Assembly (NCBI GenBank): GCA_964508365.1
Contig: CAZDTP010000012.1
Coordinates: forward strand, 1 to 64,000
From: an uncultured archaeon
GTDB lineage: Archaea; Asgardarchaeota; Lokiarchaeia; Sigyniarchaeales; SOKP01
Length of the DNA: 64,000 nt
Reading direction: 5' to 3'
Of this stretch, positions 28,073 through 41,705 are shown one piece after another. The notes beneath the pieces are model-generated. The model ran no database searches. It saw only the letters and a program-made list of their open reading frames with translations, and was not told where the DNA came from. Both the position numbers and the translations under genes were made by a program. Every line of letters begins with the position of its first letter. The first letter of the stretch is position 1.

Positions 28073-28558
28073 TTATGATTTTTGCTCAGGAATGATTATA
28101 GTGTGGTCTTCTTTAATTCTATCCAAGACAAGTTGAGTCTTTACTTCTTCTACTTCTGGAAGATTGCGAAGATTTTCTATAAGATTCATTGAATCATTAT
28201 GGTCTAAGCATTTAGCCATAATAAAGATAGGATAGTCTCCCGTAATAATATAAGCGTATTTAATTTGATTCATTCGTTCGATTTCTTCTTTAATTTGCTC
28301 AAGAGGTCGCCTTGAATTAACTCTGAGCGATGCCATCACCATTTCACGATATCCTAATTTTCGACAATCAATGATAGCCATGTATTTTTTAATTAGAGTT
28401 TCTTCTAATTTTTGAATTCTAGTTCGAATAGCTGTTTGACTCATATCTGTCTTTTCAGCTACTTCCCGAATGGTCATTTTACCATCTTCTTGTAATAATT
28501 CTAAAATTCGTTTATCAACATTATCTATGTTACCATTTGTCAAGCTTACTGATACCAT
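28073..28558 (-). CDS. Lrp/AsnC family transcriptional regulator
   Basis: DNVDKRILELLQEDGKMTIREVAEKTDMS..AIRTRIQKLE HTH, followed by a RAM domain (ITGDYP). Confidence 0.92.
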   Translation of the reverse strand: MVSVSLTNGNIDNVDKRILELLQEDGKMTIREVAEKTDMSQTAIRTRIQKLEETLIKKYMAIIDCRKLGYREMVMASLRVNSRRPLEQIKEEIERMNQIKYAYIITGDYPIFIMAKCLDHNDSMNLIENLRNLPEVEEVKTQLVLDRIKEDHTIIIPEQKS

Positions 28559-28807: not shown

Positions 28808-29032
28808 ATGGCTGATAAAACATTAAATGCAATCGGTTTAAAATGTCCCATGCCAGTTTTAAAAACGAAGAAGGAACTGAAAGGAATGACTTCAGGGCAG
28901 GTCTTAGAGCTTATTGTCGATGATAAAGGAGCTTTAAAAGACATTCCAGCCTTATTAGGGAAAACTGGGGATGAATTACTCGAAACTAATGAATCTGATG
29001 ATCAAGTAGTTTTCTTGATTAAAAAAGCATGA
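28808..29032 (+). CDS. tusA: TusA/SirA sulfur-carrier protein
   Basis: LNAIGLKCPMP (CPxP motif). Confidence 0.92.
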   Translation: MADKTLNAIGLKCPMPVLKTKKELKGMTSGQVLELIVDDKGALKDIPALLGKTGDELLETNESDDQVVFLIKKA

Positions 29033-29060
29033 ACTTGATAATTTATTTGAGGGACGAGCG

Positions 29061-29429
29061 ATGACGACATATACATTCTTTATTAGTACAGAACCTTATA
29101 AATTTGAGGTTACAGATTCGCTAATTGAACTTTGTAAGGCTATCATAAAAAAGGGAAACTCCATCAAGGGATTATTCTTTTTTGGATCGGGTGTCTACAA
29201 CTTAAAGGGAGACATTAGTGCTGGAGCAACGATACGCAATTTACCTAAAAAGTTACAAGATTTTGCTCTTGAGAACAATATTCCTGTATCGGGTTGTAGT
29301 ACATGGGTAAGTTTAACTGGTCTAAAGGAAGAGGAATTTATTGAAGGTGCTACTGAAGAAGGGTTAGGTGACTTTTCAAATTGGTCAGTAGAATCTGATA
29401 AAATAATAGTTTTTGGAACGGGGGGATAA
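29061..29429 (+). CDS. dsrE: DsrE/TusD-like sulfurtransferase subunit
   Basis: STEPY...GLFFFGSGVY...GCSTW; Cys at the expected active-site position. Confidence 0.75.
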   Translation: MTTYTFFISTEPYKFEVTDSLIELCKAIIKKGNSIKGLFFFGSGVYNLKGDISAGATIRNLPKKLQDFALENNIPVSGCSTWVSLTGLKEEEFIEGATEEGLGDFSNWSVESDKIIVFGTGG

Positions 29430-29431
29430 TA

Positions 29432-29800
29432 ATGGTGGAATCAGTAGTAATTATAACAGACCAATCACCCGTAGGTAAGAATTCTGCAGCAGAAGCAATT
29501 AGGATTGGATCTGGTTTTGTGGCGTTAGGAGAATATATCAATTGTCAAGTGGTATTTATGGGTGATGCGTTATACTTGTTGAATAAAAATGCAGTTCCTA
29601 ATGCTATTGACATGGATTCTAATGATGAGGTACTTGAAATCGCAGATTTATCAGATTTAGAGTTGTACATAATAGATACAGACTTGAAGAATGCTGGCAT
29701 GACAGAAGATGATCTAATTGAATATGAGAGTTTAAAGATAATATCTATTGAGGAATTATCTGATTTAATAGATCAAGCAGATACATGCTTTAGATTCTAA
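29432..29800 (+). CDS. dsrF: DsrF/TusC-like subunit
   Basis: QSPVG..SAAEAIR...VFMGDALY motif; position after dsrE. Confidence 0.75.
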   Translation: MVESVVIITDQSPVGKNSAAEAIRIGSGFVALGEYINCQVVFMGDALYLLNKNAVPNAIDMDSNDEVLEIADLSDLELYIIDTDLKNAGMTEDDLIEYESLKIISIEELSDLIDQADTCFRF

Positions 29801-29813
29801 TGGAGGGAAAAAG

Positions 29814-30143
29814 ATGGAAATAGTATACTTATTCGGATTTAGTGAAAGGACAGGGAACCATTTAGAAAGGCTATTGCCCTTATTAAAAGTGCAAATTCAG
29901 AAAGGAGCAAATGTCGGTTTAGTCTTTATACACGATGGAGTGATTGGATTAAACACCAATGGATCAATTCCAAGCAAATTGGAAGAATTATTAAACTCTA
30001 ATATTACATTAAAAGCCATGGTTCCAGATATGAAAGCACGAGGAATACCCATTGAGAGCTTGCATGATAAAATAAAACCAATTGAATATGATGAGTTAGT
30101 AGAAATATTAGATAATACTCAAAAAATAATTTCATGGATGTAA
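29814..30143 (+). CDS. dsrH: DsrH/TusB-like subunit
   Basis: VFIHDGV...DMKARG...YDELVE...ISW motif. Confidence 0.8.
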   Translation: MEIVYLFGFSERTGNHLERLLPLLKVQIQKGANVGLVFIHDGVIGLNTNGSIPSKLEELLNSNITLKAMVPDMKARGIPIESLHDKIKPIEYDELVEILDNTQKIISWM

Positions 30144-30267
30144 AATAATCAAAAATTAAAAATTTTTTAATAATTAATAAATCAAAAATAACGGTCATAG
30201 ATTTGACGTCAATAATTAAGAACAACAAAAAAATTAAAAATAAAATAAAAAATAGAAGTGAAAAAAT

Positions 30268-30684
30268 ATGGGAGAAACAATAAACTATATAGTAAAGGAC
30301 AAATCATTCGAAAAGTTCGCAATGATGATGCTCCTAGGTACCACAGCAGACGCTATGGAAACAAAATCCAACTTTTTCTTCACCTTTTGGGGTTTGAACT
30401 TATTAACCAAAAAGTTTAAACCTAAAGTTGCTGGAATGCCTACACCTATGAAGGGTATGGGTGCAAAGATTTTTAGAAAAAGGATGGCAAAGTTTGGAAT
30501 TGAAGATCCATGGGGTATGATTAAAGACGCTGTCGAAAATGGTAATATGAAATTATTTCCATGCCAAATGACAATGGATTTAATGGGAATTAAGCGAGAA
30601 GATATGCTTGATTTTGTTGAAGATCCTGTAGGTGCCGCAACATTCTTAGAAATGTGTGAAGGCGGAAAAATGGTCTCACTATAA
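30268..30684 (+). CDS. DsrE2/DsrE3-family sulfur-carrier protein
   Basis: FFFTFWGL...PCQMTMDLMGI...VGAATFL motif. Confidence 0.88.
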   Translation: MGETINYIVKDKSFEKFAMMMLLGTTADAMETKSNFFFTFWGLNLLTKKFKPKVAGMPTPMKGMGAKIFRKRMAKFGIEDPWGMIKDAVENGNMKLFPCQMTMDLMGIKREDMLDFVEDPVGAATFLEMCEGGKMVSL

Positions 30685-30728
30685 ATAAATTTTTAAAAAT
30701 TTTTTTTTTAATTCAAATTAATGAAATA

Positions 30729-31295
30729 GTGGAAAAAATGTCAGAAACAAAAGAAGAACACCGAGAATTTAAGACAGATGAAGATTTCGATAAAGATTAT
30801 TTTAAAAATATTGAAAGAAAGTCAAATATTTGGCAATGTATTCAGTGTGGAACGTGCACGGCCAGCTGTGAGTCTGGACGTTGGACTGCACTTAAAACAA
30901 GATTAATCATTAGAAAAGTATGTTTAGGAGATCTTAGTGTTCTTAAAGACCCCGATATTTGGCTTTGTACAACTTGTTATCAATGTTATGAACGCTGTCC
31001 TCGTGATGTAAGGCCAACTGATGTAATAATGGAATTAAGAAATTACGCTACTAAATTAGGAAATATTTCGCCATCTCACCGAGCGGTTGTTGGCTATTTA
31101 AAGAATTTTGGACATGCCGTACCTATAAATGACGAGATTAGAAAACGAAGGGTCGAATTAGGATTAGAAGAACTCCCTCCAACTGCGTTTAAATATAAAC
31201 AAGAGGGAGATGATAAAGATTTAAAGAAATTTGAAGAACATTTGTTTGATCTTCCTCCAGTTAAGGAGGAAAAAAAGAAGGAAGAGGAGAAGTAA
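30729..31295 (+). CDS. hdrC: Heterodisulfide reductase subunit C
   Basis: CIQCGTCTASC and WLCTTCYQCYERCP. Confidence 0.93.
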   Translation: MEKMSETKEEHREFKTDEDFDKDYFKNIERKSNIWQCIQCGTCTASCESGRWTALKTRLIIRKVCLGDLSVLKDPDIWLCTTCYQCYERCPRDVRPTDVIMELRNYATKLGNISPSHRAVVGYLKNFGHAVPINDEIRKRRVELGLEELPPTAFKYKQEGDDKDLKKFEEHLFDLPPVKEEKKKEEEK

Positions 31296-31298
31296 GAA

Positions 31299-32216
31299 AT
31301 GGTAAAAGAACATACATTTTCATTTTTTCTCGGCTGTCTCATGCCAAATAGATATCCCGCAATTGAAAAAGCAACAAAGTTTGTAATGGGGAAACTTGGA
31401 TACGAGCTTTTGGACATGGAACGTGCTAGTTGCTGTCCGGCTCCAGGAGTATTTCGATCATTTAATAAATTTGATTGGATGGTAGCAGGTGCTAGAAATC
31501 TCTGCATTGCTGAAAAACTCGATGCAGACATTCTTACGGTTTGTAATGGATGTTTTGGAACATTACAAGAGATTAACAAACACTTGAAAGAAAACGAAGA
31601 TCACAGAGAATTAGTAAATGAAAAATTAAAACTGCTCGGAGATTACGAGTTTAAAGGTACGATTGATGTCCGGCACATTGCTGAAGTATTAGGGTACGAA
31701 GTAGGCCCATGGGGCATAGAAGATCTAATTACACGAAAAGTAAACGCGCATGCTGCTGTACATTATGGGTGTCATTTTCTAAAACCTACAAGAATTCGAG
31801 AGATTGAAAGCTCAGAAGGACCTACCATCATCGAAGATTTTATTGAGGTATTAGGAGTAGAATCTGTTAGATTTAAGGAGCAGTTAACTTGTTGTGGTGC
31901 TGGTGGAGGTGTAAAAGCGTATTCTGGTGATACCAGTATGACGATTTTTGGAGAAAAAATGAAAAATATTGACGAAGTTGAGCCAGATTTTATTTTGGAT
32001 ATATGTCCTTTCTGTCATTTACAATTTGAGACGGGACAAGATTATCTAAATAAAAATAAGGGTTGTAATTACGATTATCCAGTTATTCATCTTTCCCAAC
32101 TCGTTGCTTATTGTATGGGTATGGACCAAGAATTTGTTGGTCTTCAATATCAAATGATGGGAAAGGATTACATTTTTGGTGGAGAAGAAGTAAAAAAAGA
32201 AGAGGGGTCGATTTAG
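31299..32216 (+). CDS. hdrB: Heterodisulfide reductase subunit B
   Basis: Two CCG domains: GC...CCPAPG...CNGC and HYGCH...CCGAGGG...CPFCHLQF. Confidence 0.95.
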   Translation: MVKEHTFSFFLGCLMPNRYPAIEKATKFVMGKLGYELLDMERASCCPAPGVFRSFNKFDWMVAGARNLCIAEKLDADILTVCNGCFGTLQEINKHLKENEDHRELVNEKLKLLGDYEFKGTIDVRHIAEVLGYEVGPWGIEDLITRKVNAHAAVHYGCHFLKPTRIREIESSEGPTIIEDFIEVLGVESVRFKEQLTCCGAGGGVKAYSGDTSMTIFGEKMKNIDEVEPDFILDICPFCHLQFETGQDYLNKNKGCNYDYPVIHLSQLVAYCMGMDQEFVGLQYQMMGKDYIFGGEEVKKEEGSI

Positions 32217-34232
32217 ATGGCCGTTAAAGAAGATAAAATGGAAAAAAGCAAAACTGAATCGGGAGACTTTGAAGAACCCAGAATTGGCGTTTTTGTATGT
32301 CATTGTGGTCATAACATTGCTGGAACTGTGGATGTCGCAAAAGTGGCAAATTACGCAAAAGAGTTACCAAATGTTGTAAAAGCGGAGCATTATATGTTTA
32401 TGTGTTCAAAACCAGGCGTTCAGATGGTCAAAGATTCGATTAGAGAATTAGGGGTTAATAGAACTGTTGTAGCAAGCTGTTCAAAAAATCAACATGGTTT
32501 GACTTTTGCGAAAGCTATTGCTGAAGAGGGTATTAATAAACACAAACACCAACAAGTAAACATAAGAGAGTATTGTAGTTGGGTTCATAAAAAAGACGAG
32601 GAAAAAGCAACTGCAAAAGCACTTCGATTGGTCGAAGCTGGAGTAAATCGAGCTCGAAAACTTGAAGATGTAGAAACTAGACGAGTATCGACGACTAAAG
32701 CAGCTTTAGTTATTGGTGGGGGTATCGCTGGCCTTAGATCCGCTCATGATTTGGCAGAATTAGGAATACCCGTGTTTTTGGTAGAAAAAAATTCTACAAT
32801 TGGAGGGCACATGACACAATTAAATAAAACATTTCCAACTTTAGAATGTCCCCAATGCTCGATTTCACCTTTAACTAATGGAGTAGCGAATCATCCTTTA
32901 ATTGAACTTTATACAAACGCCCAAATTAAGAGCGTTGAGGGTTCATTAGGAAATTTTGAAGTTGAGATTGAAATAAAGCCTCGCTATGTTAAAGATAACT
33001 GTACTTCTTGTGGCGAATGTTCTTTACACTGTCCAGTAGAAGTGCCTAGTGAATGGGACAAAGGAATGTCTATGCGAAACGCTATTTACAAAGCATATCC
33101 GCAAGCAATTCCCGCAACATTCGTAAGGGACAAAAAATCTTGTATTGAGTGTAATACATGTATTAACATATGTCCAGTCCAAGCGATTGATTTTTCGATG
33201 GAAACTGAGACTAAAACGGTGAAAGTTGGTTCGATTGTAGTTGCTGTGGGATATGATGAATACGATCCTACGGAAATAGAACCATATCATTATGGAAAAG
33301 AGGGATATGAAGATGTTATTACTCAATTAAAATTAGAACGAATGTTATCACCAACATCTCTTACTAATTCTGAAGTGTTGCGACCATCTGACGGAAAACT
33401 ACCAAAGAGTATTGTAATGATTCAATGCGTGGGTAGTAGAAACGATCAAGTTGGCAATCAGTATTGTACTGGTGTATGCTGCAAATTTGCGATAAAAAAC
33501 GCTCGAATTGTAAAAGAAATGTATCCTGATACCGATGTGACGATTTGTTATATAGATATACGAACTCCAGGATTAAATTTCGAAGAGTTATATAAATCTG
33601 CTCAAGAAGTTGGAGTCAGATTCATCCGAGGTAGACCTTCGGAAATTATTAAAGACCCTATAAATGGAGAATTAAAAGTTATAGTAGAGGACACCTTAAG
33701 CATGACACCTTTACAATTAAAAGCTGATTTGGTTGTGTTGTCAGCAGCGATGGTGCCACCCGAAGGAATAGGACCACTTGGTTCTAAGCTTAAAGTTTTA
33801 CGTTCCAAGGAAGGTTTTTTAAAAGAATTTCATATTAAGATGAACCCTACATTGAGTAGTAAAGGAGGAATTTTCTTAGCGGGTGCGATACAAGGACCAA
33901 AAGACATTTCTGAAACCGTAGCGCACGCGGGGAGTGCTGCTGCTTTAGCTGCTGCACCTCTAGTTAAAGGTTATATAGAAAAGGAAATGTTGGTACCAGT
34001 TATAGATTATGATTTATGCGTTAATTGTGGAATTTGTAAGACCATTTGCGCACCAGCCGCAATCGATATTGATGATAATGGAAGACCATCAGTCAATGAG
34101 ATAGCGTGTAGATCATGTGGAATGTGTATGCCAAGTTGTCCGACAATGGCGATTCAACTGATTAATTTTACAGAGGATCAAATGCATGATGAAATAATTG
34201 CCGTATCGGGCGGAGGTGCCGTGTGCGAATGA
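32217..34232 (+). CDS. hdrA: Heterodisulfide reductase subunit A (methanogen-type, inserted and C-terminal ferredoxin domains)
   Basis: VFVCHCG, NIREYCSWVH, GGGIAG, QCVGSR, VCCKFAIK, four CxxCxxCxxxC motifs. Confidence 0.96.
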   Translation: MAVKEDKMEKSKTESGDFEEPRIGVFVCHCGHNIAGTVDVAKVANYAKELPNVVKAEHYMFMCSKPGVQMVKDSIRELGVNRTVVASCSKNQHGLTFAKAIAEEGINKHKHQQVNIREYCSWVHKKDEEKATAKALRLVEAGVNRARKLEDVETRRVSTTKAALVIGGGIAGLRSAHDLAELGIPVFLVEKNSTIGGHMTQLNKTFPTLECPQCSISPLTNGVANHPLIELYTNAQIKSVEGSLGNFEVEIEIKPRYVKDNCTSCGECSLHCPVEVPSEWDKGMSMRNAIYKAYPQAIPATFVRDKKSCIECNTCINICPVQAIDFSMETETKTVKVGSIVVAVGYDEYDPTEIEPYHYGKEGYEDVITQLKLERMLSPTSLTNSEVLRPSDGKLPKSIVMIQCVGSRNDQVGNQYCTGVCCKFAIKNARIVKEMYPDTDVTICYIDIRTPGLNFEELYKSAQEVGVRFIRGRPSEIIKDPINGELKVIVEDTLSMTPLQLKADLVVLSAAMVPPEGIGPLGSKLKVLRSKEGFLKEFHIKMNPTLSSKGGIFLAGAIQGPKDISETVAHAGSAAALAAAPLVKGYIEKEMLVPVIDYDLCVNCGICKTICAPAAIDIDDNGRPSVNEIACRSCGMCMPSCPTMAIQLINFTEDQMHDEIIAVSGGGAVCE

Positions 34233-34681
34233 GTGATTGCGAAACTCCTGATGAATATGTTCAAGAAAGGATTCAAAATGTTGTTGTATTCATGTGCAAC
34301 GAATGTGGTCAAGGAAGCGCAAATACTGCGGGTGTCGCTCGAATGTCGTACGATGCTGCAATTAGAATAATTAGAGTTCAATGCACGGGTCAAGTCGGAC
34401 CGATTCAGATTATGGAAGCGTTAAATAACGGTGCTGATGCAGTCGCTTGCGTAGGATGTTGTTTAGGCGCCTGTCATTTTTTTAATGGTAATATAATTTC
34501 GATGCACAGAATTAAATTGATGAAAAAACTCTTTAAAGAGTTAGGTTATAGCGATCAATTTGTAAACCAATACACTTCGAGAGCTGCGGAGGGTGAAACT
34601 GCTGTTGGCGATTTCGAAGATATTATAGACCGATTAACAACTGCAATTCTAGATAAGGGGACGATAAAAGATGGATGTTAA
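34229..34681 (+). CDS. mvhD: MvhD/FlpD [2Fe-2S] subunit
   Basis: FMCNEC...IRVQCTG...GADAV..VGCCLGACHF. The ATG at 34229 overlaps the hdrA stop (ATGA). Confidence 0.88.
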   Translation: MSDCETPDEYVQERIQNVVVFMCNECGQGSANTAGVARMSYDAAIRIIRVQCTGQVGPIQIMEALNNGADAVACVGCCLGACHFFNGNIISMHRIKLMKKLFKELGYSDQFVNQYTSRAAEGETAVGDFEDIIDRLTTAILDKGTIKDGC

Positions 34682-35912
34682 AGTATTCCAATTTAACGGT
34701 TGTAATAAGTGCTTCAATGAGACTGTATTACTTAAACAAGACGCTAAATATAAAGTCGAGTTTGTCTCTGATCCAAAGAATTGGAAAGGAGAAAAAGTTG
34801 ACATATCAGTTATTACAGGGTATTTACTTCCTAACGATTTGGAGCACGTGGAACGTATAAAGAACAATTCAAATAAAGTAATTGCTTATGGAGACTGTCC
34901 AGCTACAGGTGGAGTATTTGCTTTAGCAAATCAAAAAGGGCACGACGTTAAACCTTTAGCAACCTTAATTGAAGGTTCAAGTAGTGTATATGGATGTTTA
35001 GGCGAAATTGAAGAATTAAAATTAGCGATTGACGGAAGAGATGTTCCAATATTAAAAAATTTATGTCAAATTTGCTCCAGAAAAGCAACATGTGACTATT
35101 TAGAAAAAATTAATAGACAAATTGAATTAGAGGATTCTGAAACATGTTTTAACGACTTAGGTTTTCTCTGTAGTGGCTTTACTGCGACTGAGTGTAAAGA
35201 AAAATGTATTGATTACAATACTCCTTGTAGAGGTTGTAAACCAAGCATAGATCGTTCTGGAATTCGCATGTTAGCAATGTTCGGCACATTAGCAGGGAAC
35301 ATTGAAATTGCTACCGAACATTCAGTAAAGGGAGCAACTGACAAATTAGGCGACGCTGACGACGATCTAACAGACAGCTTACCTGATATCGTCGGCAATT
35401 TTTTCAGATTTACATTACCTACTTCTGGTTTGCCAAAAGGTAAAATCTCTTCCTCAGGAACTTTATTAGAAGATGTTTTCATTGGTAGGCTGATTGAGGA
35501 GATCCCTTTGATAACCGGACTTATAGGGGGGGCTAAATCAATATCTTTTACGCTTAAATTCATAAAGGCATACGAGGAAGCAAATCAAATAGAAGTAAGC
35601 GAACAAACGAAAAAATACCGGAACGAGCTCCTACAATTAGAAAAAGACCTACAAGATGCTATAATTAAAGAAGATGCATCGAAATACAAAGAGATTACAA
35701 ATAAAATCCGATTTATTGCTGGAAATATGAACTTATCAAACGTATTTTTTGGTGGATTCAAGTCAATTATCGATCCTAACGATGACTTTAACAATTATAA
35801 AACCCATGTTTTTGATGTGGTGGATGGAACCTATAAAAATGGTTCGATAGAATATACCATTAATCCAGATGGTATTATAAAAGAAATTAAAATTAACGAG
35901 GAATTATTATGA
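34671..35912 (+). CDS. MvhG/FrhG-like hydrogenase small-subunit homolog with extra C-terminal helical domain
   Basis: GCNKC, YGDCPATGG, CQIC...CF...LCSG...C...C...PCRGC, followed by about 150 additional residues. Confidence 0.75.
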   Translation: MDVKVFQFNGCNKCFNETVLLKQDAKYKVEFVSDPKNWKGEKVDISVITGYLLPNDLEHVERIKNNSNKVIAYGDCPATGGVFALANQKGHDVKPLATLIEGSSSVYGCLGEIEELKLAIDGRDVPILKNLCQICSRKATCDYLEKINRQIELEDSETCFNDLGFLCSGFTATECKEKCIDYNTPCRGCKPSIDRSGIRMLAMFGTLAGNIEIATEHSVKGATDKLGDADDDLTDSLPDIVGNFFRFTLPTSGLPKGKISSSGTLLEDVFIGRLIEEIPLITGLIGGAKSISFTLKFIKAYEEANQIEVSEQTKKYRNELLQLEKDLQDAIIKEDASKYKEITNKIRFIAGNMNLSNVFFGGFKSIIDPNDDFNNYKTHVFDVVDGTYKNGSIEYTINPDGIIKEIKINEELL

Positions 35913-38374
35913 GTTTTGAACTATTAAAAAGTGAGATTATTGACGCGGGTTTATGCCAAGGCTGTGGTTTATGTTCAGGGTACTGCAAACATATTGAAAT
36001 GGAGACGCTAAGACCAATTTTAAAAGATTATTGTATCCTTGAAAGAGAAGGACAGGATTGCGGTAAGTGTTACCAAAACTGCCCTCAAGTATTGCAGAAA
36101 AAATTTAAGGAGCTACAACCCTTAGGAATTTATTCCTTAAGAAGTAAAGACTCTAAAATATTAGAAAAAGCGTCAAGTGGAGGATTTGTTACTGCAATCG
36201 CAAAGCATCTCCTCGAGGAAAAGGTTTTATCCGAAATTGTAATGGTGCAAAACATTGACGATTTACCTAAGGCAAGCAGTGTAACTAATCCTGAAGATGT
36301 AATTCAAAGGGCAGGGATCGTATATGGGCGATCTGGGGTTTTAGAAAAGTTAGTAGAAGTTTCTGGAGACAATTTAGAACCTTTAGGCATCGTGGGAGTT
36401 CCATGTGAGATCAGAGGAGCTGCTGAAATGGGCGTAGAAATGAACCGGGAAATCCTTAAAATAGGGTTATTCTGTAATTCAAGTATCAGAACGGAAGAAA
36501 CAGATAGAGGTTTAGTTTGTTCACCATGTTGTGGAGGTTGTCCTTCAGGTGTTAATGCACAAGGTTATATATCGTTAATACGAGAACATAAATACTTAGA
36601 AGCTGTAGAATTAATCCGCAAAGACAATCCATTGCCTTCTATTTGCGGAAGAATCTGTACGCATGAATGCGAACACGGTTGCACGTTAATCGGCTCAGAT
36701 CATCCAGTGGCGATAAGAGAACTAAAAAAATTTATAACAGAGTACGAAATTAAGCAAGGGAAACAAAAAACTGTAAAGACTAAGAAAAAGCTAGGAAAGA
36801 AAGTAGCAATAATAGGTGCTGGACCAGCAGGTTTGACAGCAGGATATTATTTATCGCTTAAAGGATATTCCCCAACGATTTTTGAAAAAACCGATCATAC
36901 TGGCGGAATGCTTCGATTTGGAGTGCCTCAATTCAGATTACCTAACTACGTACTAGATTACGATATAGAGACGATAAAAAATGCTGGCGTGGAAATTATA
37001 TTCAACAAACCATTAGGTCCTGACATGACTATTGAAGACCTAAAAAACGACGGATTTAAAGCCATTTTTATCGCGACGGGTCAATATAAACCAAGAACAT
37101 TACACTTAGAAGGAGAGGAACTTCCGAACGTACATGTTGCTATTAATTTCCTTATCGATAGAAAATATCGCGATTGGCAGAAACAGCAAGAGTTTAAAGG
37201 TAAAACCATAGGAATAATAGGAGGTGGAGCGGTAGCCGTTGATGTTGCACAGACAGCACTGAGGTTAGGCGCAGAAAAAATAGATCTTGTTGATGTCATG
37301 ACTGAAAAGGATCTTGAACTCGTAATACGAGAGATTCCTGAAGAAGAATTAAAATTCATGGAATATCATTTTAATACTTCCGTATCAAAAATTACTGAAG
37401 GAGAAGGAGAGGAACTATTATTAAATAGTTATAAAATTCAATGGAGCAATGCAGATGATACTGGCAGAAGGTCAATTAATAAAATCGAGGGTTCTGATTT
37501 TGAGATCAATGCAGACGCTATAGTTATCGCTGTTGGTCAAGCCGTTGATTTTAATTTAATAGATATCGCAACTGATAATAAACTCAAAAAAGAGCGAAAT
37601 AAAATTGAGATCAATCCAATAACATTTGAGACTAATATTCCAGGAATATTTGCTGGTGGAGATACAATTACAAACTCAAAAGCTGTTGCAATTGCCGCAA
37701 TCGCTCACGGTAAAGAAACAGCTATCTCAATAGATCGATATTTAAATGGAGAAGACCTTTCAGCGGGTCGTTATCAACAAAACAAAATGTTTTTCGAAGG
37801 AATTTCGAAAACTCCAAAAGACTATTCATTAAAACCAGAATCATTAGAAGAAGCTACTGAAGATGTCCAATGGAATTTTGAGGAGATCGAAGCAAAATTT
37901 AGCGAAGAAATGGCGCTAGCAGAGGCTAGACGTTGTTTAAGTTGTAATCATTACTGCTCGCATTGCCAAGATTTTCCTGCAATTTATTCAGACTTTACAG
38001 CTGGAGAGGTTGGTTCCAAACCAGGCTTCACAACCGTCGTAGTTTGGACAGAAAGAGGTAAAGAAATCATTGAAAAAGCCTTAAACCAAGGATTATTTGA
38101 AGAAGGCAGCGTTAACAAGGACGAATTGAAGAAAGCAATCACTCTAAAATCAAAACGAGAAATGGAAGTTTTAGAAAAAACTCCAAGGCAACAAGTTTTA
38201 GACTACATCACTCTTCAAGGTCCAACCACAATTAGCAACATGTCTGAAACCTTAAATTTAGAAACTAAAAAAGTACGCTACGAAGCTTTACGATTGGTTC
38301 AATTGAATCAAATTGAGATGAATATTGAACCGGGCTTCGAAGAACCAATGTTTTCACCTATATGTGAAGATTAA
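35909..38374 (+). CDS. Fusion oxidoreductase: ferredoxin + FrhB/FdhB split by a GltD/NfnB-like module + C-terminal wHTH
   Basis: CQGCGLC; SSGGFVT, GVPCE, IGLFC (FrhB N-half); CPSGVNAQGY..CGRIC..CE..C, GAGPAG, GGGAVA, FAGGD (GltD); CSHCQDF..DFTAGEVGS..GFTTVVVWTERG (FrhB C-half); helix-turn-helix-like tail. Confidence 0.85.
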   Translation: MSFELLKSEIIDAGLCQGCGLCSGYCKHIEMETLRPILKDYCILEREGQDCGKCYQNCPQVLQKKFKELQPLGIYSLRSKDSKILEKASSGGFVTAIAKHLLEEKVLSEIVMVQNIDDLPKASSVTNPEDVIQRAGIVYGRSGVLEKLVEVSGDNLEPLGIVGVPCEIRGAAEMGVEMNREILKIGLFCNSSIRTEETDRGLVCSPCCGGCPSGVNAQGYISLIREHKYLEAVELIRKDNPLPSICGRICTHECEHGCTLIGSDHPVAIRELKKFITEYEIKQGKQKTVKTKKKLGKKVAIIGAGPAGLTAGYYLSLKGYSPTIFEKTDHTGGMLRFGVPQFRLPNYVLDYDIETIKNAGVEIIFNKPLGPDMTIEDLKNDGFKAIFIATGQYKPRTLHLEGEELPNVHVAINFLIDRKYRDWQKQQEFKGKTIGIIGGGAVAVDVAQTALRLGAEKIDLVDVMTEKDLELVIREIPEEELKFMEYHFNTSVSKITEGEGEELLLNSYKIQWSNADDTGRRSINKIEGSDFEINADAIVIAVGQAVDFNLIDIATDNKLKKERNKIEINPITFETNIPGIFAGGDTITNSKAVAIAAIAHGKETAISIDRYLNGEDLSAGRYQQNKMFFEGISKTPKDYSLKPESLEEATEDVQWNFEEIEAKFSEEMALAEARRCLSCNHYCSHCQDFPAIYSDFTAGEVGSKPGFTTVVVWTERGKEIIEKALNQGLFEEGSVNKDELKKAITLKSKREMEVLEKTPRQQVLDYITLQGPTTISNMSETLNLETKKVRYEALRLVQLNQIEMNIEPGFEEPMFSPICED

Positions 38375-38415
38375 CTAATCAAAAAAAAATATTAAAAAAT
38401 AACGAGGTAAAAATT

Positions 38416-38652
38416 ATGAATTTCGACCAAGAATTAAACGTGTGTGGCTTAGTTTGTCCCGTACCTGCATTGAAAACCAAGAAACAACTCATGAAGATGC
38501 GACCAGGTACAGTGTTAAAAGTAATAACAGACTATAAACCAGCATCAGAATCAGTTCCACGTGATTTAGCAAAAACTAAGCACAAGCACTTAGGAACTGA
38601 TTTTCTCGACGATGATGAGCTATGGCACATCTATTTTGAAGCAGTAAAATAA
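38416..38652 (+). CDS. tusA: Second TusA/SirA sulfur carrier
   Basis: LNVCGLVCPVP (CPxP motif). Confidence 0.9.
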   Translation: MNFDQELNVCGLVCPVPALKTKKQLMKMRPGTVLKVITDYKPASESVPRDLAKTKHKHLGTDFLDDDELWHIYFEAVK

Positions 38653-38996: not shown

Positions 38997-41705
38997 TTAA
39001 CTTTTGGTTAATTTCTTAGTCCTCTTTCTCATCAATATTATAGAAATTCCAATGAGAGATATAATAAGAACACTCAAGTTATATCCCGGTATACCACCAT
39101 CGCCATTGGTAACTGCGGAAGTTATCTCAAAATATGCAGCACTATCATCATAGGTTGAGGGATTAGAGGAATCTTCAATGTGAATTTGATAAGAATCTGC
39201 GTAGTTTGTATAACTAGAAGCTAGCGTCCAGGAATAATTCCCATCATTCGAAGTACTTGAAGCAATAGTGCTATTATAAACTCCTAAATAATAGAGGTCA
39301 ATGTCCACATTAGCAATACTTCCCGTAGAAGTCCATGTTATGGAGTGCGTTGAACCTGCCTGCCAAGAACTTGATGCTGTAGGACTCGTAACTGTTAAGG
39401 AATCTGGTACTGTTATCTCGAAATAGTTAGCACTATAATCATAGGTTGAGGGAGTAGAGGAATCTTCAATACGAATGGTATAAGAATCTGCATAGTTTGC
39501 ATAACTAGAAGCTAGCGTCCAAGAATATGACCCGTCGTTCGAAGTACTTGAAGCAATGCTGCTATGAAAAACTCCTAAATAATAGAGGTCAATGTCCACA
39601 TTGGTAATGCTTCCCGTAGAAGTCCATGTAATTGATTGCGTTGAACCTGCCTGCCAAGAACTTGATGCTGTAGGACTCGTAACTGTTAAGGAATCTGGTA
39701 CGAGATCATCCCACCATAAATTATAGAGGTTCCCTGCATTAGCACCATAAACCCTAAGGTAATACGTTCCACTTGATGGAAGAATATAATCGATATATTC
39801 ATTATCGGTAGTGGAATAACTCCCTGTAACAAGGGTAGTACCATCGCTAGCGAAAACAGCAACATCAATATTACCAGATGCGTGACTGAAAATACAGCTT
39901 ACTATCAAATTTTCATAACCTGGGGTAATCGAGATTTGATAATAATCGTAATCTGCTTGAATTCCTGCCCCATCAACCGCAGATAACCAATCTTGCTCAT
40001 CGAATGAGATATCATAAGCAGTTAGATAACCATCATTTTCCTCGTAGTTGTCATCACTCGGTCGAGCTAAGTCATCCCACCATAAATTATATAGGTTTCC
40101 AGCGTTATCTCCATAAACTCTTAAGTAATACGTTCCACTTGACGGAAGAAGAGTATCGATGTATTCATTATCACTAGTTGAGTAGCTCCCTGCGACAAGG
40201 GTAGTACCATCACTGGCGTATATCTGAACATTAATATTTCCATCTGCATCTGTGAATTGAAGATCTACGACTAAATTCTCATAACCTCCAGTTATCGAGA
40301 TTTGGTACCAATCGTCATCTGCTTGAATTCCTGCACCATCAACCTCAGTTAACCAATCCGCTTCGCGCGATGCGATATTATATGCCGATGAATAGACATC
40401 GTTTTCCTCGTAGTTATCATCAATTGGTGGAGCTAAGTCATCCCACCATAAATCATATAGGTTCCCTGCGTTATCTCCATAAATCCTTAGGTAATACGTT
40501 CCACTTGATGCGAGTAATAAATCGATGTATTCATCATTCGTCGTTGAAATGCTAGATGTAAGAAAATTCCCTACGCTATCATAAACAGCAATGTTAATAT
40601 TACCAGCTGCGTCGCTGAAAGTAAGGGAAACAGCTAAAAGTTCTTCACCGGGGCTAATAAAGATTTCGAACCAATCATCATCGCTCTGAACACCTAATCC
40701 CAATGTCATACTACTCAACCATGTATTCTCCATTGAGGAAAGACCATAAGCAGTTGTACGAAGGTCATTCTCCTCATACCGATCATCACCAGTGGGTAAA
40801 TCATCCCACCATAGATCGTATGTATTCCCGCCATTGCCCCAATAGACTTGTATATAATAAGTCCCAGCTGAGGAAGCTGTATAATCAATAACTTCGTTGT
40901 TAGTCGTAGACCAGCTATATGTTAAGAGAGTAGTACGATCAGAATTCCAAAGATCAATATCAATATTTCCTGATACATCGTTAAAAAGACAAAATATAAG
41001 GATACGTAATGCATCAGAAGTAATAGAGATTCGATACCAGTCAGAATCCGATTGAATTCCTAATCCATTAATCGAACTTAACCATACTCGTTCATTAGTA
41101 GAAATATCAGTTGCTGTTGTATAGAGATCATTTTGTTCATAGAGATCATCTGTTGCCGCCGTACCAATATCATCCCATAGTAAATCATAAGTATTTCCTG
41201 CATTATCTCCATAAATCCAGAGGTAATAAGTTCCACTTGACGGAAGAACATAATCGATGTATTCATTATCCGTAGTTGTCGAAACTCCAGTTACATATGT
41301 CCCAACGCTATTGTAAACAGCAAGATTAATATTGCCTTCAACATCATAAAAAAGGAGGTGTACGACCAATCGTAGAAATCCTGAGGTAATATCGATTTCA
41401 AACCAGTCACTATCTTTTTGGACTCCAAAACCACCGATGTTGCTCAGCCATGTTCTCTCCATTACGGAAAGATCATAAGCTGAAGTACGAATATCATTCT
41501 CTTCATAAACATCTTCGGCTTGACTCGTTTGAAGTTTATCAAAAAGAATATCCTGTTTATAGTTCACGTCCGATTCTTCGTGTGTTTCCAATTTGGAATT
41601 TAATGCAATATTATTAACAACCATTGTGGTAGCGCTGAATAAAAGTACTAAAGTCAAAACGGTAAAAATCAATATATGTTTTTTATTAAATTTCATAATA
41701 ATCAT
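38997..41705 (-). CDS. Surface protein with five PPC-like repeats, two Ser/Thr-rich Ig-like domains and an IPGY sorting tail
   Basis: Five D.YE.ND...D.DW...SGTYYL.IYG repeats; 97-aa duplicated domain; GIPGY followed by TM and basic tail. Confidence 0.88.
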   Translation of the reverse strand: MIIMKFNKKHILIFTVLTLVLLFSATTMVVNNIALNSKLETHEESDVNYKQDILFDKLQTSQAEDVYEENDIRTSAYDLSVMERTWLSNIGGFGVQKDSDWFEIDITSGFLRLVVHLLFYDVEGNINLAVYNSVGTYVTGVSTTTDNEYIDYVLPSSGTYYLWIYGDNAGNTYDLLWDDIGTAATDDLYEQNDLYTTATDISTNERVWLSSINGLGIQSDSDWYRISITSDALRILIFCLFNDVSGNIDIDLWNSDRTTLLTYSWSTTNNEVIDYTASSAGTYYIQVYWGNGGNTYDLWWDDLPTGDDRYEENDLRTTAYGLSSMENTWLSSMTLGLGVQSDDDWFEIFISPGEELLAVSLTFSDAAGNINIAVYDSVGNFLTSSISTTNDEYIDLLLASSGTYYLRIYGDNAGNLYDLWWDDLAPPIDDNYEENDVYSSAYNIASREADWLTEVDGAGIQADDDWYQISITGGYENLVVDLQFTDADGNINVQIYASDGTTLVAGSYSTSDNEYIDTLLPSSGTYYLRVYGDNAGNLYNLWWDDLARPSDDNYEENDGYLTAYDISFDEQDWLSAVDGAGIQADYDYYQISITPGYENLIVSCIFSHASGNIDVAVFASDGTTLVTGSYSTTDNEYIDYILPSSGTYYLRVYGANAGNLYNLWWDDLVPDSLTVTSPTASSSWQAGSTQSITWTSTGSITNVDIDLYYLGVFHSSIASSTSNDGSYSWTLASSYANYADSYTIRIEDSSTPSTYDYSANYFEITVPDSLTVTSPTASSSWQAGSTHSITWTSTGSIANVDIDLYYLGVYNSTIASSTSNDGNYSWTLASSYTNYADSYQIHIEDSSNPSTYDDSAAYFEITSAVTNGDGGIPGYNLSVLIISLIGISIILMRKRTKKLTKS
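39121..39702. repeat. Tandem 291-bp intragenic duplication (97-aa Ser/Thr-rich domain)
   Basis: 39121..39411 versus 39412..39702, with long identical stretches. Confidence 0.85.

What the first reader, a model, noticed from the sequence alone, without database searches (positions are those of the whole stretch)
28808..38652. Persulfide-relay / methanogen-type Hdr operon: candidate undescribed sulfur-linked electron-bifurcating system
Twelve tightly spaced co-oriented genes: tusA, dsrE, dsrF, dsrH, dsrE2, hdrC, hdrB, hdrA, mvhD, MvhG-like, FrhB::GltD fusion, tusA. Established knowledge: TusA and DsrEFH/DsrE carry persulfide sulfur; HdrABC-MvhD bifurcates electrons to a disulfide and ferredoxin. 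The sulfur-oxidizing sHdr system also co-occurs with tusA and dsrE, but it uses two HdrCB pairs, a shorter HdrA and lipoate-binding proteins. Here there is one HdrCB, a full ferredoxin-containing HdrA, DsrEFH without dsrAB or dsrC in the window, and an F420/NAD(P)H input module. Inference: HdrB acts on protein-bound persulfides or polysulfide-derived sulfur rather than CoM-S-S-CoB, giving a sulfur-reducing or detoxifying electron sink in a lineage usually seen as fermentative and syntrophic.
Basis: partly seen in the sequence, partly recalled or inferred. Interest (0 to 1): 0.85.

Follow-up and report, generated by a model that had tools for sequence, protein, structure and literature searches.

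The report
Asgard Hdr operon with sulfur carriers
A Lokiarchaeon, which makes no methane, keeps a methanogen-type energy-splitting disulfide reductase that has lost its hydrogenase and is packaged with small sulfur-carrier proteins, so carrier-bound sulfur is a testable, still unproven candidate for the enzyme's unknown substrate.

Summary
Twelve co-oriented genes at 28808-38652, plus a divergent Lrp/AsnC regulator, encode TusA, DsrE/F/H-like proteins, a DrsE_2 protein, HdrC, HdrB, HdrA, MvhD, an MvhG-like protein, FrhB with an inserted GltD/NfnB module, and a second TusA. The genome is a Lokiarchaeial Asgard archaeon.

- **Conservation:** 40 of 42 related loci with enough flanking DNA keep the gene order. 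These include cultured Promethearchaeum syntrophicum MK-D1, where all genes are transcribed, and Lokiarchaeum ossiferum. The linkage survives rearrangement in Thorarchaeota and in the methanogen Methermicoccus.
- **Enzyme type:** HdrABC is methanogen-type. The MvhG-like protein carries a cysteine-free relic of the hydrogenase large subunit.
- **Genome context:** McrA, ComA, DsrC and sulfite reductase were not found. A second, H2-linked MvhAG-HdrBC module sits beside its own TusA-TsuA-DsrEFH set.

Coupling between Hdr and the sulfur relay is strong. Persulfide as the HdrB substrate remains an inference, because the CoB-contacting residues are partly kept and the methanogen homologue also has carriers.

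It is not undescribed. Imachi 2020 lists the cluster, Kurth 2021 names FrhBG-HdrA2B2C2, and a 2025 preprint proposes Hdr reduction of TusA/DsrE persulfides. This scan has already followed up the same cluster in other Asgard genomes and analogues in bacteria.

The parts
28073..28558 (-). Lrp/AsnC-family regulator, divergent from the operon
   Evidence: Pfam HTH_AsnC-type plus AsnC_trans_reg. The same gene sits upstream in L001 and L115, and lies inside the cluster between the DrsE_2 gene and hdrC in MK-D1 (DSAG12_01144) and in L004.
28808..29032 (+). TusA-family sulfur carrier 1 (74 aa)
   Evidence: PF01206, 85.6 bits. The Cys of the CPxP motif is invariant in orthologues.
29061..29429 (+). DsrE/TusD-like subunit (122 aa)
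   Evidence: PF02635. TIGR03012 scores 45 bits, below the cut-off of 89. The Cys at the DsrE Cys78-type position is invariant.
29432..29800 (+). DsrF/TusC-like subunit (122 aa)
   Evidence: PF02635. TIGR03010 is below its cut-off. No invariant Cys.
29814..30143 (+). DsrH/TusB-like subunit (109 aa)
   Evidence: PF04077. There is no conserved Cys, unlike the DsrH Cys20 of DsrC-dependent systems.
30268..30684 (+).
   Evidence: PF13686, 79 bits. The DsrE2 equivalog NF047629 scores 50 bits against a cut-off of 210. One invariant Cys. No upstream extension or Sec codon. Thor-type and Methermicoccus loci have a PF02635 DsrE gene in this position.
30729..31295 (+). HdrC (188 aa)
   Evidence: TIGR03290, 175.9 bits, cut-off 160.
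31299..32216 (+). HdrB, catalytic subunit with two CCG motifs (305 aa)
   Evidence: TIGR03288, 362 bits, cut-off 345. It scores about 305 bits in near-gapless alignment to methanogen HdrB 5odc_B and 8rvv_B, and is 56% identical to a protein in the same 90%-identity cluster as Methermicoccus HdrB2.
32217..34232 (+). HdrA, bifurcating flavoprotein with inserted and C-terminal ferredoxin domains (671 aa)
   Evidence: 647 bits to 5odc_A over residues 19-660, against 137 bits to sHdrA 6tjr_A. Pfam FAD and Fer4 domains.
34223..34681 (+). MvhD-type [2Fe-2S] connector (152 aa)
   Evidence: PF02662 FlpD, 107 bits. VhuD-like, 93 bits.
34671..35912 (+). MvhG/FrhG-like Fe-S subunit fused to a cysteine-free relic of the [NiFe]-hydrogenase large subunit (413 aa)
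   Evidence: AF2 model. The N-domain matches MvhG 5odc_E (Foldseek E 2.8e-9; Z 12.5). Residues 263-413 match FrhA 6qgt_A (Z 13.2, rmsd 2.6, 150 residues aligned) and other large subunits. No conserved Cys lies after residue 189.
35909..38374 (+). FrhB-family flavoprotein split by an inserted GltD/NfnB-type NAD(P)H-FAD-2x[4Fe-4S] module, with a winged-helix-like tail (821 aa)
   Evidence: Pfam FrhB_N at 75-146, Fer4_20 plus Pyr_redox_2 at 194-601, FrhB_C at 637-736. The insert matches NfnA, NfnI and GltD; the flanks match FrhB and Fsr. Alignment with insert-free homologues shows clean insertion boundaries.
38416..38652 (+). TusA-family sulfur carrier 2 (78 aa)
   Evidence: PF01206, 67.9 bits. 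The CPxP Cys is invariant. It follows the FrhB-like gene in 58 of 60 loci, and also in Thorarchaeota and Methermicoccus.

Best explanation
The operon encodes a hydrogenase-free, flavin-based electron-bifurcating heterodisulfide-reductase complex. Its core is a methanogen-type HdrABC. Its donor arm is MvhD plus a fossil hydrogenase: the small subunit fused to a nickel-free relic of the large subunit, and an FrhB-type flavoprotein that in Lokiarchaeia carries an inserted NfnB/GltD NAD(P)H module. Electrons would enter from NAD(P)H and/or F420H2, pass along the Fe-S chain and MvhD to the HdrA flavin, and split towards ferredoxin and HdrBC. I infer that the S-S substrate cleaved at the HdrB non-cubane clusters is sulfane sulfur delivered by the co-encoded cysteine relay (TusA, then DsrEFH-like or DrsE_2, then HdrBC). 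The chemical form could be a persulfide, a thiosulfonate or a mixed disulfide. The products would be H2S and regenerated carrier thiols. This would serve as sulfur assimilation from thiosulfate, S0 or cysteine persulfide and/or as an extra electron sink for a fermenter. Shown here: gene content, domain architecture, conserved active-site cysteines, conserved linkage, and failure to find MCR, CoM synthesis, DsrC and sulfite reductase. Inferred: the substrate, the direction, the electron donor and the bifurcation itself.
For: (1) The linkage is kept in 40 of 42 and 58 of 60 Loki-type loci. It also survives three different rearrangements: Thor-type DsrE-HdrCBA-MvhD-MvhG*-FrhB-TusA-(DsrEFH); Harpocratesius, with Lrp, a ThiF-family gene and a cysteine desulfurase interleaved; and Methermicoccus-type DsrE-DsrE-HdrCBA-MvhD-MvhG*-FrhB-TusA. 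(2) There is an independent second case. The same genome has TusA-TsuA(YeeE)-DsrEFH divergent from MvhG-MvhA-HdrC-HdrB on contig C8. MK-D1 has these nine genes co-oriented and contiguous. About half of 20 sampled loci from four Asgard families show the adjacency. (3) The carrier cysteines are invariant in both TusA proteins, DsrE and DrsE_2. (4) A carrier gene always abuts hdrC. (5) No McrA, ComA, DsrC or NIR_SIR sulfite reductase was found in a genome estimated 100% complete. (6) One CoB-phosphate-binding Arg (Arg240 of 5ODR) is Thr, Gly or Ser in 60 of 60 Asgard operon HdrBs, but Arg in Methermicoccus HdrB2. (7) All 13 genes are transcribed at similar levels in MK-D1, RPKM 182-348. (8) Precedent exists: TusA/DsrE cascades feed sHdr, and a preprint proposes the same chemistry for an Asgard Mvh-Hdr.
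Against: No biochemical data exist. The HdrB pocket residues that contact CoM and CoB are mostly retained: the Arg14 equivalent in 60 of 60, Gly46 and Gly198 in 60 of 60, and Arg201 replaced by Lys in 58 of 60. The lost Arg240 is also Val in the genuine CoM-S-S-CoB reductase of M. marburgensis, so a small anionic disulfide cannot be excluded. A buried HdrB site built for a long aliphatic thiol may not admit a protein cysteine; this is inference from the 5ODC architecture. The methanogen homologue, presumed to reduce CoM-S-S-CoB, has carriers too. By established redox potentials, S0/H2S lies near -270 mV and NAD(P)H at -320 mV, which leaves little driving force to reduce ferredoxin. The operon is patchy: 24 of 41 genomes in the genus, and missing from congeners rated 100% complete, so it is accessory.
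Confidence: 0.45

Rival explanations
1. HdrB reduces a small-molecule disulfide, either CoM-S-S-CoB-like or an unknown Asgard thiol pair. The TusA/DsrE proteins are accessories. They could supply sulfur for making that thiol, for building or repairing the unusual non-cubane clusters, or for other biosynthesis.
For: HdrB is 52-56% identical, almost without gaps, to genuine CoM-S-S-CoB reductases and passes the TIGR03288 cut-off. The Arg14, Gly46 and Gly198 equivalents are invariant, and the Arg201 position stays basic. The orthologous Methermicoccus cluster, interpreted as an F420:CoB-S-S-CoM oxidoreductase, carries DsrE x2 and TusA as well. In Harpocratesius the carriers sit with a cysteine desulfurase and a ThiF-type E1, which are typical biosynthetic partners.
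Against: No McrA or ComA was found. The operon contains no biosynthetic enzyme in 40 of 42 loci. The second Hdr module is tied to a thiosulfate-type importer plus relay, which looks like substrate supply. Three DsrEFH-like sets and five TusA genes in one genome are more than housekeeping needs.
Confidence: 0.25
2. The complex runs the other way. It would oxidise carrier-bound sulfane sulfur or thiols, as sHdr does, or confurcate electrons from reduced ferredoxin and thiols onto NAD(P)+ or F420.
For: TusA/DsrE cascades are established feeders of the sulfur-oxidising sHdr complex. Imachi et al. regard the Asgard Mvh-Hdr as confurcating and reversible. NfnB-type modules are reversible by established knowledge.
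Against: The defining sHdr features are not met: one HdrCB pair, a full-length methanogen-type HdrA, and no lbpA in or near the cluster. No sulfite-handling enzyme or oxidant-linked partner is encoded nearby. The organism's relatives are strict fermenters.
Confidence: 0.1
3. The relay traffics selenium rather than sulfur. TusA/YedF-like and YedE-like proteins would feed selenide production for the many Asgard selenoproteins.
For: The second TusA scores best against the YedF selenium-metabolism models, though below their cut-offs. The GltD insert resembles YgfK and 'near-Sec' oxidoreductases, also below cut-off. Asgard HdrA and MvhD are often selenoproteins.
Against: Sec-containing SelD is present in 41 of 42 genomes of the genus, whereas the operon is in 24 of 41, so they do not co-vary. 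No gene of this operon contains an in-frame TGA. All scores to selenium-specific models are well under their cut-offs.
Confidence: 0.04
4. The adjacency reflects no functional link: two unrelated gene sets that happen to travel together.
For: Only that no experiment connects them.
Against: The linkage is kept across Lokiarchaeia, Thorarchaeota and Methermicoccaceae with different gene orders. The genes have overlapping or abutting reading frames. A second paralogous Hdr-relay pairing exists.
Confidence: 0.03

Closest known systems
FrhBG-HdrA2B2C2 of Methermicoccus shengliensis (named as a putative ferredoxin-dependent F420:CoB-S-S-CoM oxidoreductase in Kurth et al. 2021, PMC8630106)
   Same: It is the closest non-Asgard homologue. 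A locus whose HdrB lies in the same 90%-identity cluster as M. shengliensis HdrB2 (56% identical to the window HdrB) has the order HdrC-HdrB-HdrA-MvhD-MvhG/FrhG-like (402 aa)-FrhB-TusA, preceded by two DsrE-family genes. It has no hydrogenase large subunit. FrhB1 and FrhG carry values in the paper's expression table.
   Different: Its FrhB has no GltD/NfnB insert. It has two DsrE-type genes instead of TusA-DsrEFH-DrsE_2. The host makes methane and uses CoM/CoB. Its HdrB keeps all three CoB-binding Arg residues, whereas Asgard HdrBs have Arg, Lys and Thr/Gly/Ser. The complex is itself uncharacterised biochemically.
MvhAGD-HdrABC of hydrogenotrophic methanogens (PDB 5ODC, 8RVU)
   Same: HdrA, HdrB, HdrC and MvhD align over their full length: HdrA 647 bits and HdrB 305 bits. 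The MvhG-like N-domain matches MvhG.
   Different: There is no catalytic MvhA, only a 150-residue cysteine-free relic fused to the small subunit. An FrhB::GltD flavoprotein replaces H2 as the donor. The host has no MCR. Sulfur carriers are encoded in the operon.
Elp-Hdr of Methanothermobacter marburgensis (Nature 2025, PMC12350162)
   Same: The logic is the same. A hydrogenase-free donor arm is made of a degenerate catalytic-subunit scaffold, an FrhB/FdhB-type flavoprotein and an MvhD homologue, and it feeds HdrABC.
   Different: The Elp scaffold is a truncated FdhA and not a hydrogenase small-subunit/large-subunit relic. The Elp donor is F420H2 only, and its substrate is proven to be CoM-S-S-CoB. 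It has no NAD(P)H module and no sulfur carriers.
sHdr-LbpA sulfur-oxidising system with its TusA/DsrE3 cascade (Tanabe et al. 2024, PMC11094781; Cao et al. 2018, PMC6067878)
   Same: An Hdr-type enzyme is genetically and functionally fed by TusA and DsrE-family carriers.
   Different: sHdr has the shdrC1B1AHC2B2 or shdrC1B1AHB3-etfAB-emo layouts, a short HdrA, lipoate-binding proteins, and an oxidative direction. None of these is met here.
Asgard group 3c [NiFe]-hydrogenase-Hdr with TusA/DsrE persulfides (hypothesis in bioRxiv 10.1101/2025.07.22.663070)
   Same: The proposed chemistry is the same, Hdr reducing TusA- and DsrE-bound sulfur in an Asgard archaeon that lacks sulfite reductase. It matches the second, C8-type module of this genome: TusA-TsuA-DsrEFH beside MvhAG-HdrBC.
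   Different: That proposal uses H2 as donor and appears only in a figure legend and one paragraph. The window operon is the hydrogenase-free, HdrA/MvhD-containing paralogue with an NAD(P)H/F420 arm.
Bacterial TusA-DsrE-MvhD-HdrL-HdrA-HdrC-HdrB operons
   Same: The theme is the same: sulfur carriers, plus a GltD/NfnB-type NAD(P)H module, plus an Hdr core. These are AI notes that I did not check here.
   Different: In those operons the NAD(P)H module is fused to an HdrA-like protein (HdrL). Here it is inserted into FrhB and wired through a fossil hydrogenase. The lineages also differ.

Membership tests
Methanogen-type soluble HdrABC-MvhD | [quoted passage not shown] | tested here: met
   TIGR03288 scores 362 bits against a cut-off of 345. 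Both CCG motifs are intact, with about 305 bits to 5odc_B and 8rvv_B.
Methanogen-type soluble HdrABC-MvhD | Full-length HdrA (N-terminal domain, FAD domain, inserted and C-terminal ferredoxin domains), a separate or fused MvhD, and HdrC | tested here: met
   HdrA residues 19-660 align to 5odc_A residues 2-646 at 647 bits. FlpD scores 107 bits. HdrC TIGR03290 scores 176 bits against a cut-off of 160. The lineage-specific HdrA equivalogs (NF040770, NF041778) fall below their very high cut-offs.
Methanogen-type soluble HdrABC-MvhD | The substrate CoM-S-S-CoB is available in the organism (MCR, CoM synthesis) | tested here: not met
   No McrA (PF02249) and no ComA (PF02679) were found in a genome estimated 100% complete. 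CoB synthesis and the ComA-independent CoM route were not tested.
Methanogen-type soluble HdrABC-MvhD | HdrB residues contacting CoM and CoB (5ODR: Arg14, Gly46, Gly198, Arg201, Arg240) | tested here: inconclusive
   In 60 operon HdrBs the residues are Arg 60/60, Gly 60/60, Gly 60/60, Lys 58/60 and Thr/Gly/Ser 60/60. M. marburgensis has Val at the last site.
sHdr (sulfur-oxidising Hdr-like) system | Two HdrCB-type pairs (shdrC1B1AHC2B2) or shdrC1B1AHB3-etfAB-emo | tested here: not met
   The operon has a single hdrC-hdrB pair and no etfAB or emo.
sHdr (sulfur-oxidising Hdr-like) system | A short sHdrA without ferredoxin domains | tested here: not met
   The 671-aa HdrA has two ferredoxin domains. 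It scores only 137 bits to sHdrA 6tjr_A, over residues 334-582.
sHdr (sulfur-oxidising Hdr-like) system | Lipoate-binding protein LbpA encoded with the cluster | tested here: not met
   The genome has two GcvH-family genes (C2 and C35), neither near the operon. Whether either is an LbpA was not resolved.
DsrEFH / TusBCD sulfur-relay complex | Three paralogous subunits E, F and H, with the active-site Cys in DsrE/TusD | tested here: met
   Pfam gives DsrE, DsrE and DsrH in that order. The DsrE Cys is invariant. Scores are below the TusD, TusC and TusB equivalog cut-offs, so this is family-level membership only.
DsrEFH / TusBCD sulfur-relay complex | The acceptor DsrC/TusE is present, and DsrH has a conserved Cys | tested here: not met
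   No PF04358 match was found in the genome. DsrH-like orthologues have no conserved Cys.
DsrE2 sulfur carrier | Scores as the DsrE2 equivalog | tested here: not met
   NF047629 scores 49.7 bits against a cut-off of 210. The protein is a PF13686 DrsE_2 member (79 bits) with one invariant Cys.
[NiFe]-hydrogenase (group 3) | A large subunit with Ni-binding CxxC pairs | tested here: not met
   Only a 150-residue relic is present (Z 13.2 to FrhA 6qgt_A), with no conserved Cys. Genuine large subunits lie elsewhere in the genome, on C8 and C2.
Elp-Hdr / Fdh-Hdr type hydrogenase-free donor arms | An FrhB/FdhB-type flavoprotein, an MvhD homologue and a degenerate scaffold subunit | tested here: met
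   FrhB_N and FrhB_C domains, FlpD, and the MvhG-relic fusion are all present. The scaffold has a different origin from ElpA, so this is an analogue and not an orthologue.
NfnB/GltD-type NAD(P)H module | Fer4_20 (2x[4Fe-4S]) plus FAD and NAD(P)H Rossmann domains | tested here: met
   PF14691 scores 93 bits and PF07992 94 bits. The insert scores 289 bits to NfnA 9n5u_A and 216 bits to NfnI 5jca_L. Nucleotide specificity is not testable here.

The most novel reading that the evidence does not exclude
The Asgard cluster would encode a new class of flavin-based electron-bifurcating enzyme whose high-potential acceptor is protein-bound sulfane sulfur. It would be an NAD(P)H/F420H2:ferredoxin + carrier-persulfide oxidoreductase built on a fossil hydrogenase. 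That would give 'fermentative' Asgard archaea, including the cultured MK-D1 and L. ossiferum, a cryptic sulfur-reducing energy metabolism. It would also identify the long-sought substrate of HdrABC in non-methanogens.
Probability: 0.3. Interest if true: 0.85.

Novelty: new variant of a known kind. Interest (0 to 1): 0.6.

Why it matters
What HdrABC reduces in organisms without coenzymes M and B is an old open question. It bears directly on how Asgard archaea, the closest prokaryotic relatives of eukaryotes, balance electrons, and on hydrogen/sulfur syntrophy models of eukaryogenesis.

This operon offers concrete candidate substrates: two TusA proteins, a DsrEFH-like trimer and a DrsE_2 protein, each carrier type with one invariant cysteine. 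It also offers a defined donor arm.

It is present and transcribed in cultured strains (MK-D1; also L. ossiferum), and a homologue exists in the easily grown methanogen Methermicoccus. The hypothesis can therefore be tested at the bench.

The fossil hydrogenase (a small subunit fused to a nickel-free relic) and the NfnB module inserted into FrhB are clear examples of how bifurcating complexes swap donor modules.

Tried and rejected
- **Hidden N-terminal extension or Sec codon before the DrsE_2 gene:** the 124-nt gap holds stops of all three kinds, so this is rejected.
- **Selenium trafficking:** Sec-type SelD is in 41 of 42 genomes of the genus regardless of the operon, so this is downgraded.
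- **Foldseek on the whole MvhG-like model:** it found only small subunits. The large-subunit relic appeared only with the exhaustive VIA-align search.
- **'MvhG-like family is Asgard-only':** the pattern-based scan of species genomes returned 76 loci, all Asgard. This was an artefact of patterns drawn mostly from Asgard sequences. Cluster look-up showed that the Methermicoccaceae carry it too.
- **HdrB tree against canonical methanogen, sHdr and Flx-Hdr references:** not built. The homologue lists were saturated by Asgard sequences, and PDB sequences cannot be referenced. I used bit scores for the same query instead: 305 bits to methanogen HdrB against 249 bits to the best in-genome paralogue.
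- **CoM/CoB-contact residues as a discriminator:** inconclusive.
- **Docking of TusA or DsrE to HdrB:** not possible, because only single-chain prediction is available.
- **Archaeal promoters and terminators:** not scanned, because the tool covers sigma-70 types only.

Full report
**1. Observation**

Spacing runs from an 11-nt overlap to a 124-nt gap.

Pfam and NCBIfam identify them in this order:
- TusA
- DsrE-, DsrF- and DsrH-like proteins
- a DrsE_2-family protein
- HdrC
- HdrB
- HdrA
- MvhD
- a 413-aa protein with a hydrogenase small-subunit domain only at its N-terminus
- an 821-aa FrhB-family protein with a GltD/NfnB-type module inserted between FrhB_N and FrhB_C
- a second TusA

A divergent Lrp/AsnC regulator sits upstream at 28073-28558.

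HdrB and HdrC exceed the curated cut-offs of the CoB-CoM heterodisulfide reductase equivalogs. The DsrE/F/H-like genes score below the TusD/C/B equivalog cut-offs. The 'dsrE2' gene scores far below the DsrE2 model and is better called a DrsE_2-family carrier.

**2. Organism and genome context**

Homologues of the 821-aa fusion are named Lokiarchaeota/Promethearchaeota. The window lies on contig C12 of a 4.07-Mb genome estimated 100% complete.

The genome contains about 22 CCG-domain proteins and many HdrA paralogues. Other findings:

| Searched for | Result |
|---|---|
| McrA | not found |
| ComA | not found |
| DsrC/TusE | not found |
| NIR_SIR sulfite reductase | not found |
| CofH (deazaflavin synthesis) | present, above cut-off, so F420 is plausible |
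| [NiFe] large subunits | two, elsewhere in the genome |
| GcvH-family genes | two, not near the operon |
| Rhodanese | a rhodanese-NifU-IscS-TusA cluster on contig C3 |

**3. Conservation**

The full gene order TusA-DsrE-F-H-DrsE_2-HdrC-B-A-MvhD-MvhG*-FrhB::GltD-TusA recurs in metagenome-assembled genomes. It also recurs in the closed genomes of Lokiarchaeum ossiferum and Promethearchaeum syntrophicum MK-D1.

Across 76 loci from species-representative genomes, 40 of 42 Loki-type loci with enough upstream DNA have the entire carrier set plus HdrCBA-MvhD. Likewise, 58 of 60 with enough downstream DNA have the FrhB-like gene plus TusA.

The linkage survives rearrangement in several lineages:
- **Thorarchaeota:** DsrE-HdrCBA-MvhD-MvhG*-FrhB (no insert)-TusA-(DsrEFH).
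- **Harpocratesius:** the carriers are interleaved with Lrp, a ThiF-type E1 and a cysteine desulfurase, and the fusion is reduced to a ferredoxin stub.
- **Some Loki-family genomes:** they carry an FrhB-only form that keeps short remnants of the insert ends, which indicates secondary loss.

The operon is patchy. The MvhG-like marker is in 79 of 399 Asgard genomes and 24 of 41 genomes of the same genus.

**4. A methanogen homologue**

The closest non-Asgard HdrBs belong to Methermicoccus shengliensis and other Methermicoccaceae. One such protein, in the same 90%-identity cluster as M. shengliensis HdrB2, is 56% identical to the window protein.

Its locus reads DsrE-DsrE-HdrC-HdrB-HdrA-MvhD-MvhG/FrhG-like (402 aa)-FrhB (393 aa, with a winged-helix tail)-TusA. 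Kurth et al. 2021 named this cluster FrhBG-HdrA2B2C2, a putative ferredoxin-dependent F420:CoB-S-S-CoM oxidoreductase, and list FrhB1, FrhG, MvhD and HdrA2/B2/C2 in their expression table.

So the carrier link is older and wider than Asgard. It exists in an organism that does use CoM-S-S-CoB. My pattern-based scan that returned only Asgard loci was therefore biased.

**5. The donor arm**

An AlphaFold2 model of the 413-aa protein has two confident parts, residues 1-130 and 263-413. The N-domain matches MvhG of the Mvh-Hdr complex. The C-domain matches [NiFe]-hydrogenase large subunits, best with FrhA 6qgt_A at Z 13.2, rmsd 2.6 and 150 residues aligned. No cysteine is conserved after residue 189.

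The protein is thus a small subunit fused to a nickel-free relic of the large subunit. The family is tiny: 17 clusters at E below 1e-30 among 1.84 billion representatives.

The downstream flavoprotein has FrhB/Fsr-like flanks and an NfnA/NfnI/GltD-like insert, with clean insertion boundaries.

The arm resembles Elp-Hdr in logic: a degenerate scaffold, an FrhB-type flavoprotein and an MvhD homologue. It is built from an Frh/Mvh hydrogenase rather than a formate dehydrogenase.

**6. The Hdr core**

HdrA aligns over its full length to methanogen HdrA at 647 bits, and only weakly to sHdrA at 137 bits. HdrB is closer to methanogen HdrB (305 bits) than to any paralogue in its own genome (249 bits or less).

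I mapped the residues reported to contact CoM and CoB in 5ODR onto 60 operon HdrBs:

| 5ODR residue | In 60 Asgard operon HdrBs |
|---|---|
| Arg14 | Arg, 60/60 |
| Gly46 | Gly, 60/60 |
| Gly198 | Gly, 60/60 |
| Arg201 | Lys, 58/60 |
| Arg240 | Thr, Gly or Ser, 60/60 |

Methermicoccus HdrB2 keeps all three arginines, but M. marburgensis has Val at the last site. This hints at a changed anionic tail of the substrate. It does not discriminate between a small thiol and a carrier protein.

**7. A second, independent Hdr-relay pairing**

On contig C8 of the same genome, TusA-TsuA(YeeE-type transporter)-DsrE-DsrF-DsrH lies divergent from MvhG-MvhA-HdrC-HdrB. In MK-D1 the nine genes are contiguous and co-oriented.

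The five-gene TusA-TsuA-DsrEFH unit occurs in 53 of 399 Asgard genomes. In about half of 20 sampled loci, drawn from four families, it abuts Mvh/Hdr genes. This is the arrangement behind the hypothesis in the Nerearchaeum preprint.

**8. Carriers**

Both TusA proteins keep the CPxP cysteine. DsrE keeps the Cys78-type cysteine, and the DrsE_2 protein keeps a single cysteine. DsrF and DsrH have none, and no DsrC/TusE acceptor exists.

A monomeric DsrE-family gene always abuts hdrC. That makes it the most likely direct partner of HdrBC, though this is an inference.

**9. Mechanism and its limits**

The best-supported reading has these steps:
- NAD(P)H and/or F420H2 reduce the FrhB::GltD flavins.
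- Electrons pass through the small-subunit Fe-S chain and MvhD to the HdrA flavin.
- They bifurcate to ferredoxin and to HdrBC.
- HdrBC cleaves an S-S bond presented by the relay and releases sulfide.

The relay could be loaded from several sources encoded in this genome: thiosulfate (through the TsuA module), cysteine desulfurase or rhodanese.

Four points argue against this reading:
- The retained CoM/CoB-type pocket.
- The methanogen homologue, which also has carriers.
- Steric doubt about a protein cysteine reaching the buried clusters.
- The small driving force between NAD(P)H and the S0/H2S couple.

I put this reading at 0.45. A small-molecule disulfide with accessory carriers gets 0.25, and reverse or oxidative operation 0.10. 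Selenium trafficking gets 0.04, because SelD does not co-vary with the operon. Coincidental adjacency gets 0.03.

**10. Prior knowledge and novelty**

- Imachi et al. [quoted passage not shown] All of DSAG12_01139-01151 are transcribed at RPKM 182-348. They do not discuss the carriers.
- Kurth 2021 names the hydrogenase-free FrhBG-Hdr.
- The 2025 preprint proposes persulfide reduction by Hdr.
- Earlier notes of this scan describe the same cluster in other Asgard genomes, the relic fusion, and many bacterial TusA-DsrE-HdrL-Hdr analogues.
- Nothing has been tested biochemically.

I therefore class it as a new variant of a known kind. It is of good but not exceptional interest, mainly because it is now directly testable in cultured organisms.

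Noticed in passing
Own genome contig C8:44356-51534 (L012): A second Hdr-relay pairing. MvhG-MvhA-HdrC-HdrB on the minus strand lies divergent from TusA-TsuA(YeeE-type sulfur transporter)-DsrE-DsrF-DsrH. In MK-D1 (L093:3652-10508) the nine genes are contiguous on one strand.
   Followed up: yes
Own genome contig C82:2845-5607, minus strand (L014:2845-5607): A 920-aa single polypeptide joins an HdrC-like dicluster domain, a GltD/NfnB-type NAD(P)H module and two CCG (HdrB-like) domains. This would be a one-protein NAD(P)H:disulfide reductase design. A stand-alone 485-aa GltD/NfnB-like gene lies next to it.
   Followed up: partly
L020:1955-3154, L055:11239-12381, L039:6440-7582: Close relatives (MvhG-like protein 70-84% identical) carry an FrhB-only gene of 380-399 aa. 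It keeps short remnants of both ends of the GltD insert, so the insert was secondarily deleted. An extra HdrC-HdrB pair follows the downstream TusA.
   Followed up: partly
L004:14000-20000 (Candidatus Harpocratesius repetitus): The carrier genes are spread out and interleaved with an Lrp regulator, a ThiF-family E1 and an Aminotran_5 cysteine desulfurase. The FrhB::GltD gene is reduced to a 142-aa ferredoxin stub.
   Followed up: partly
Own genome contig C3:110266-115159 (L011): A cluster of a 796-aa double-rhodanese protein, a NifU-like scaffold fused to a Pyr_redox segment, an Aminotran_5 cysteine desulfurase and TusA. It is a likely loading point for the sulfur relay.
   Followed up: no
Own genome contig C44:20615-21716 (L010); L086:13647-14683: A third DsrEFH-like set stands alone in the genome. 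In a Thor-type locus, an extra inverted DsrEFH set directly follows the operon.
   Followed up: no
Own genome contig C139 (2163 bp, L013): A LysR-type regulator next to DsrE-like and TusA genes on a very short contig. LysR regulators are typically bacterial, so this contig may be contamination.
   Followed up: no
Own genome C6:91537-92388 and congeners: selD with one in-frame TGA (selenocysteine) occurs in 41 of 42 genomes of the genus, often as two tandem copies.
   Followed up: no
window 25023-27761 (-) and 38997-41705 (-): The operon is flanked by two large surface-type proteins: a NosD/beta-helix protein with TSP3 repeats, and a PPC plus Ig-like repeat protein. Neither is conserved next to the operon in other genomes.
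   Followed up: no
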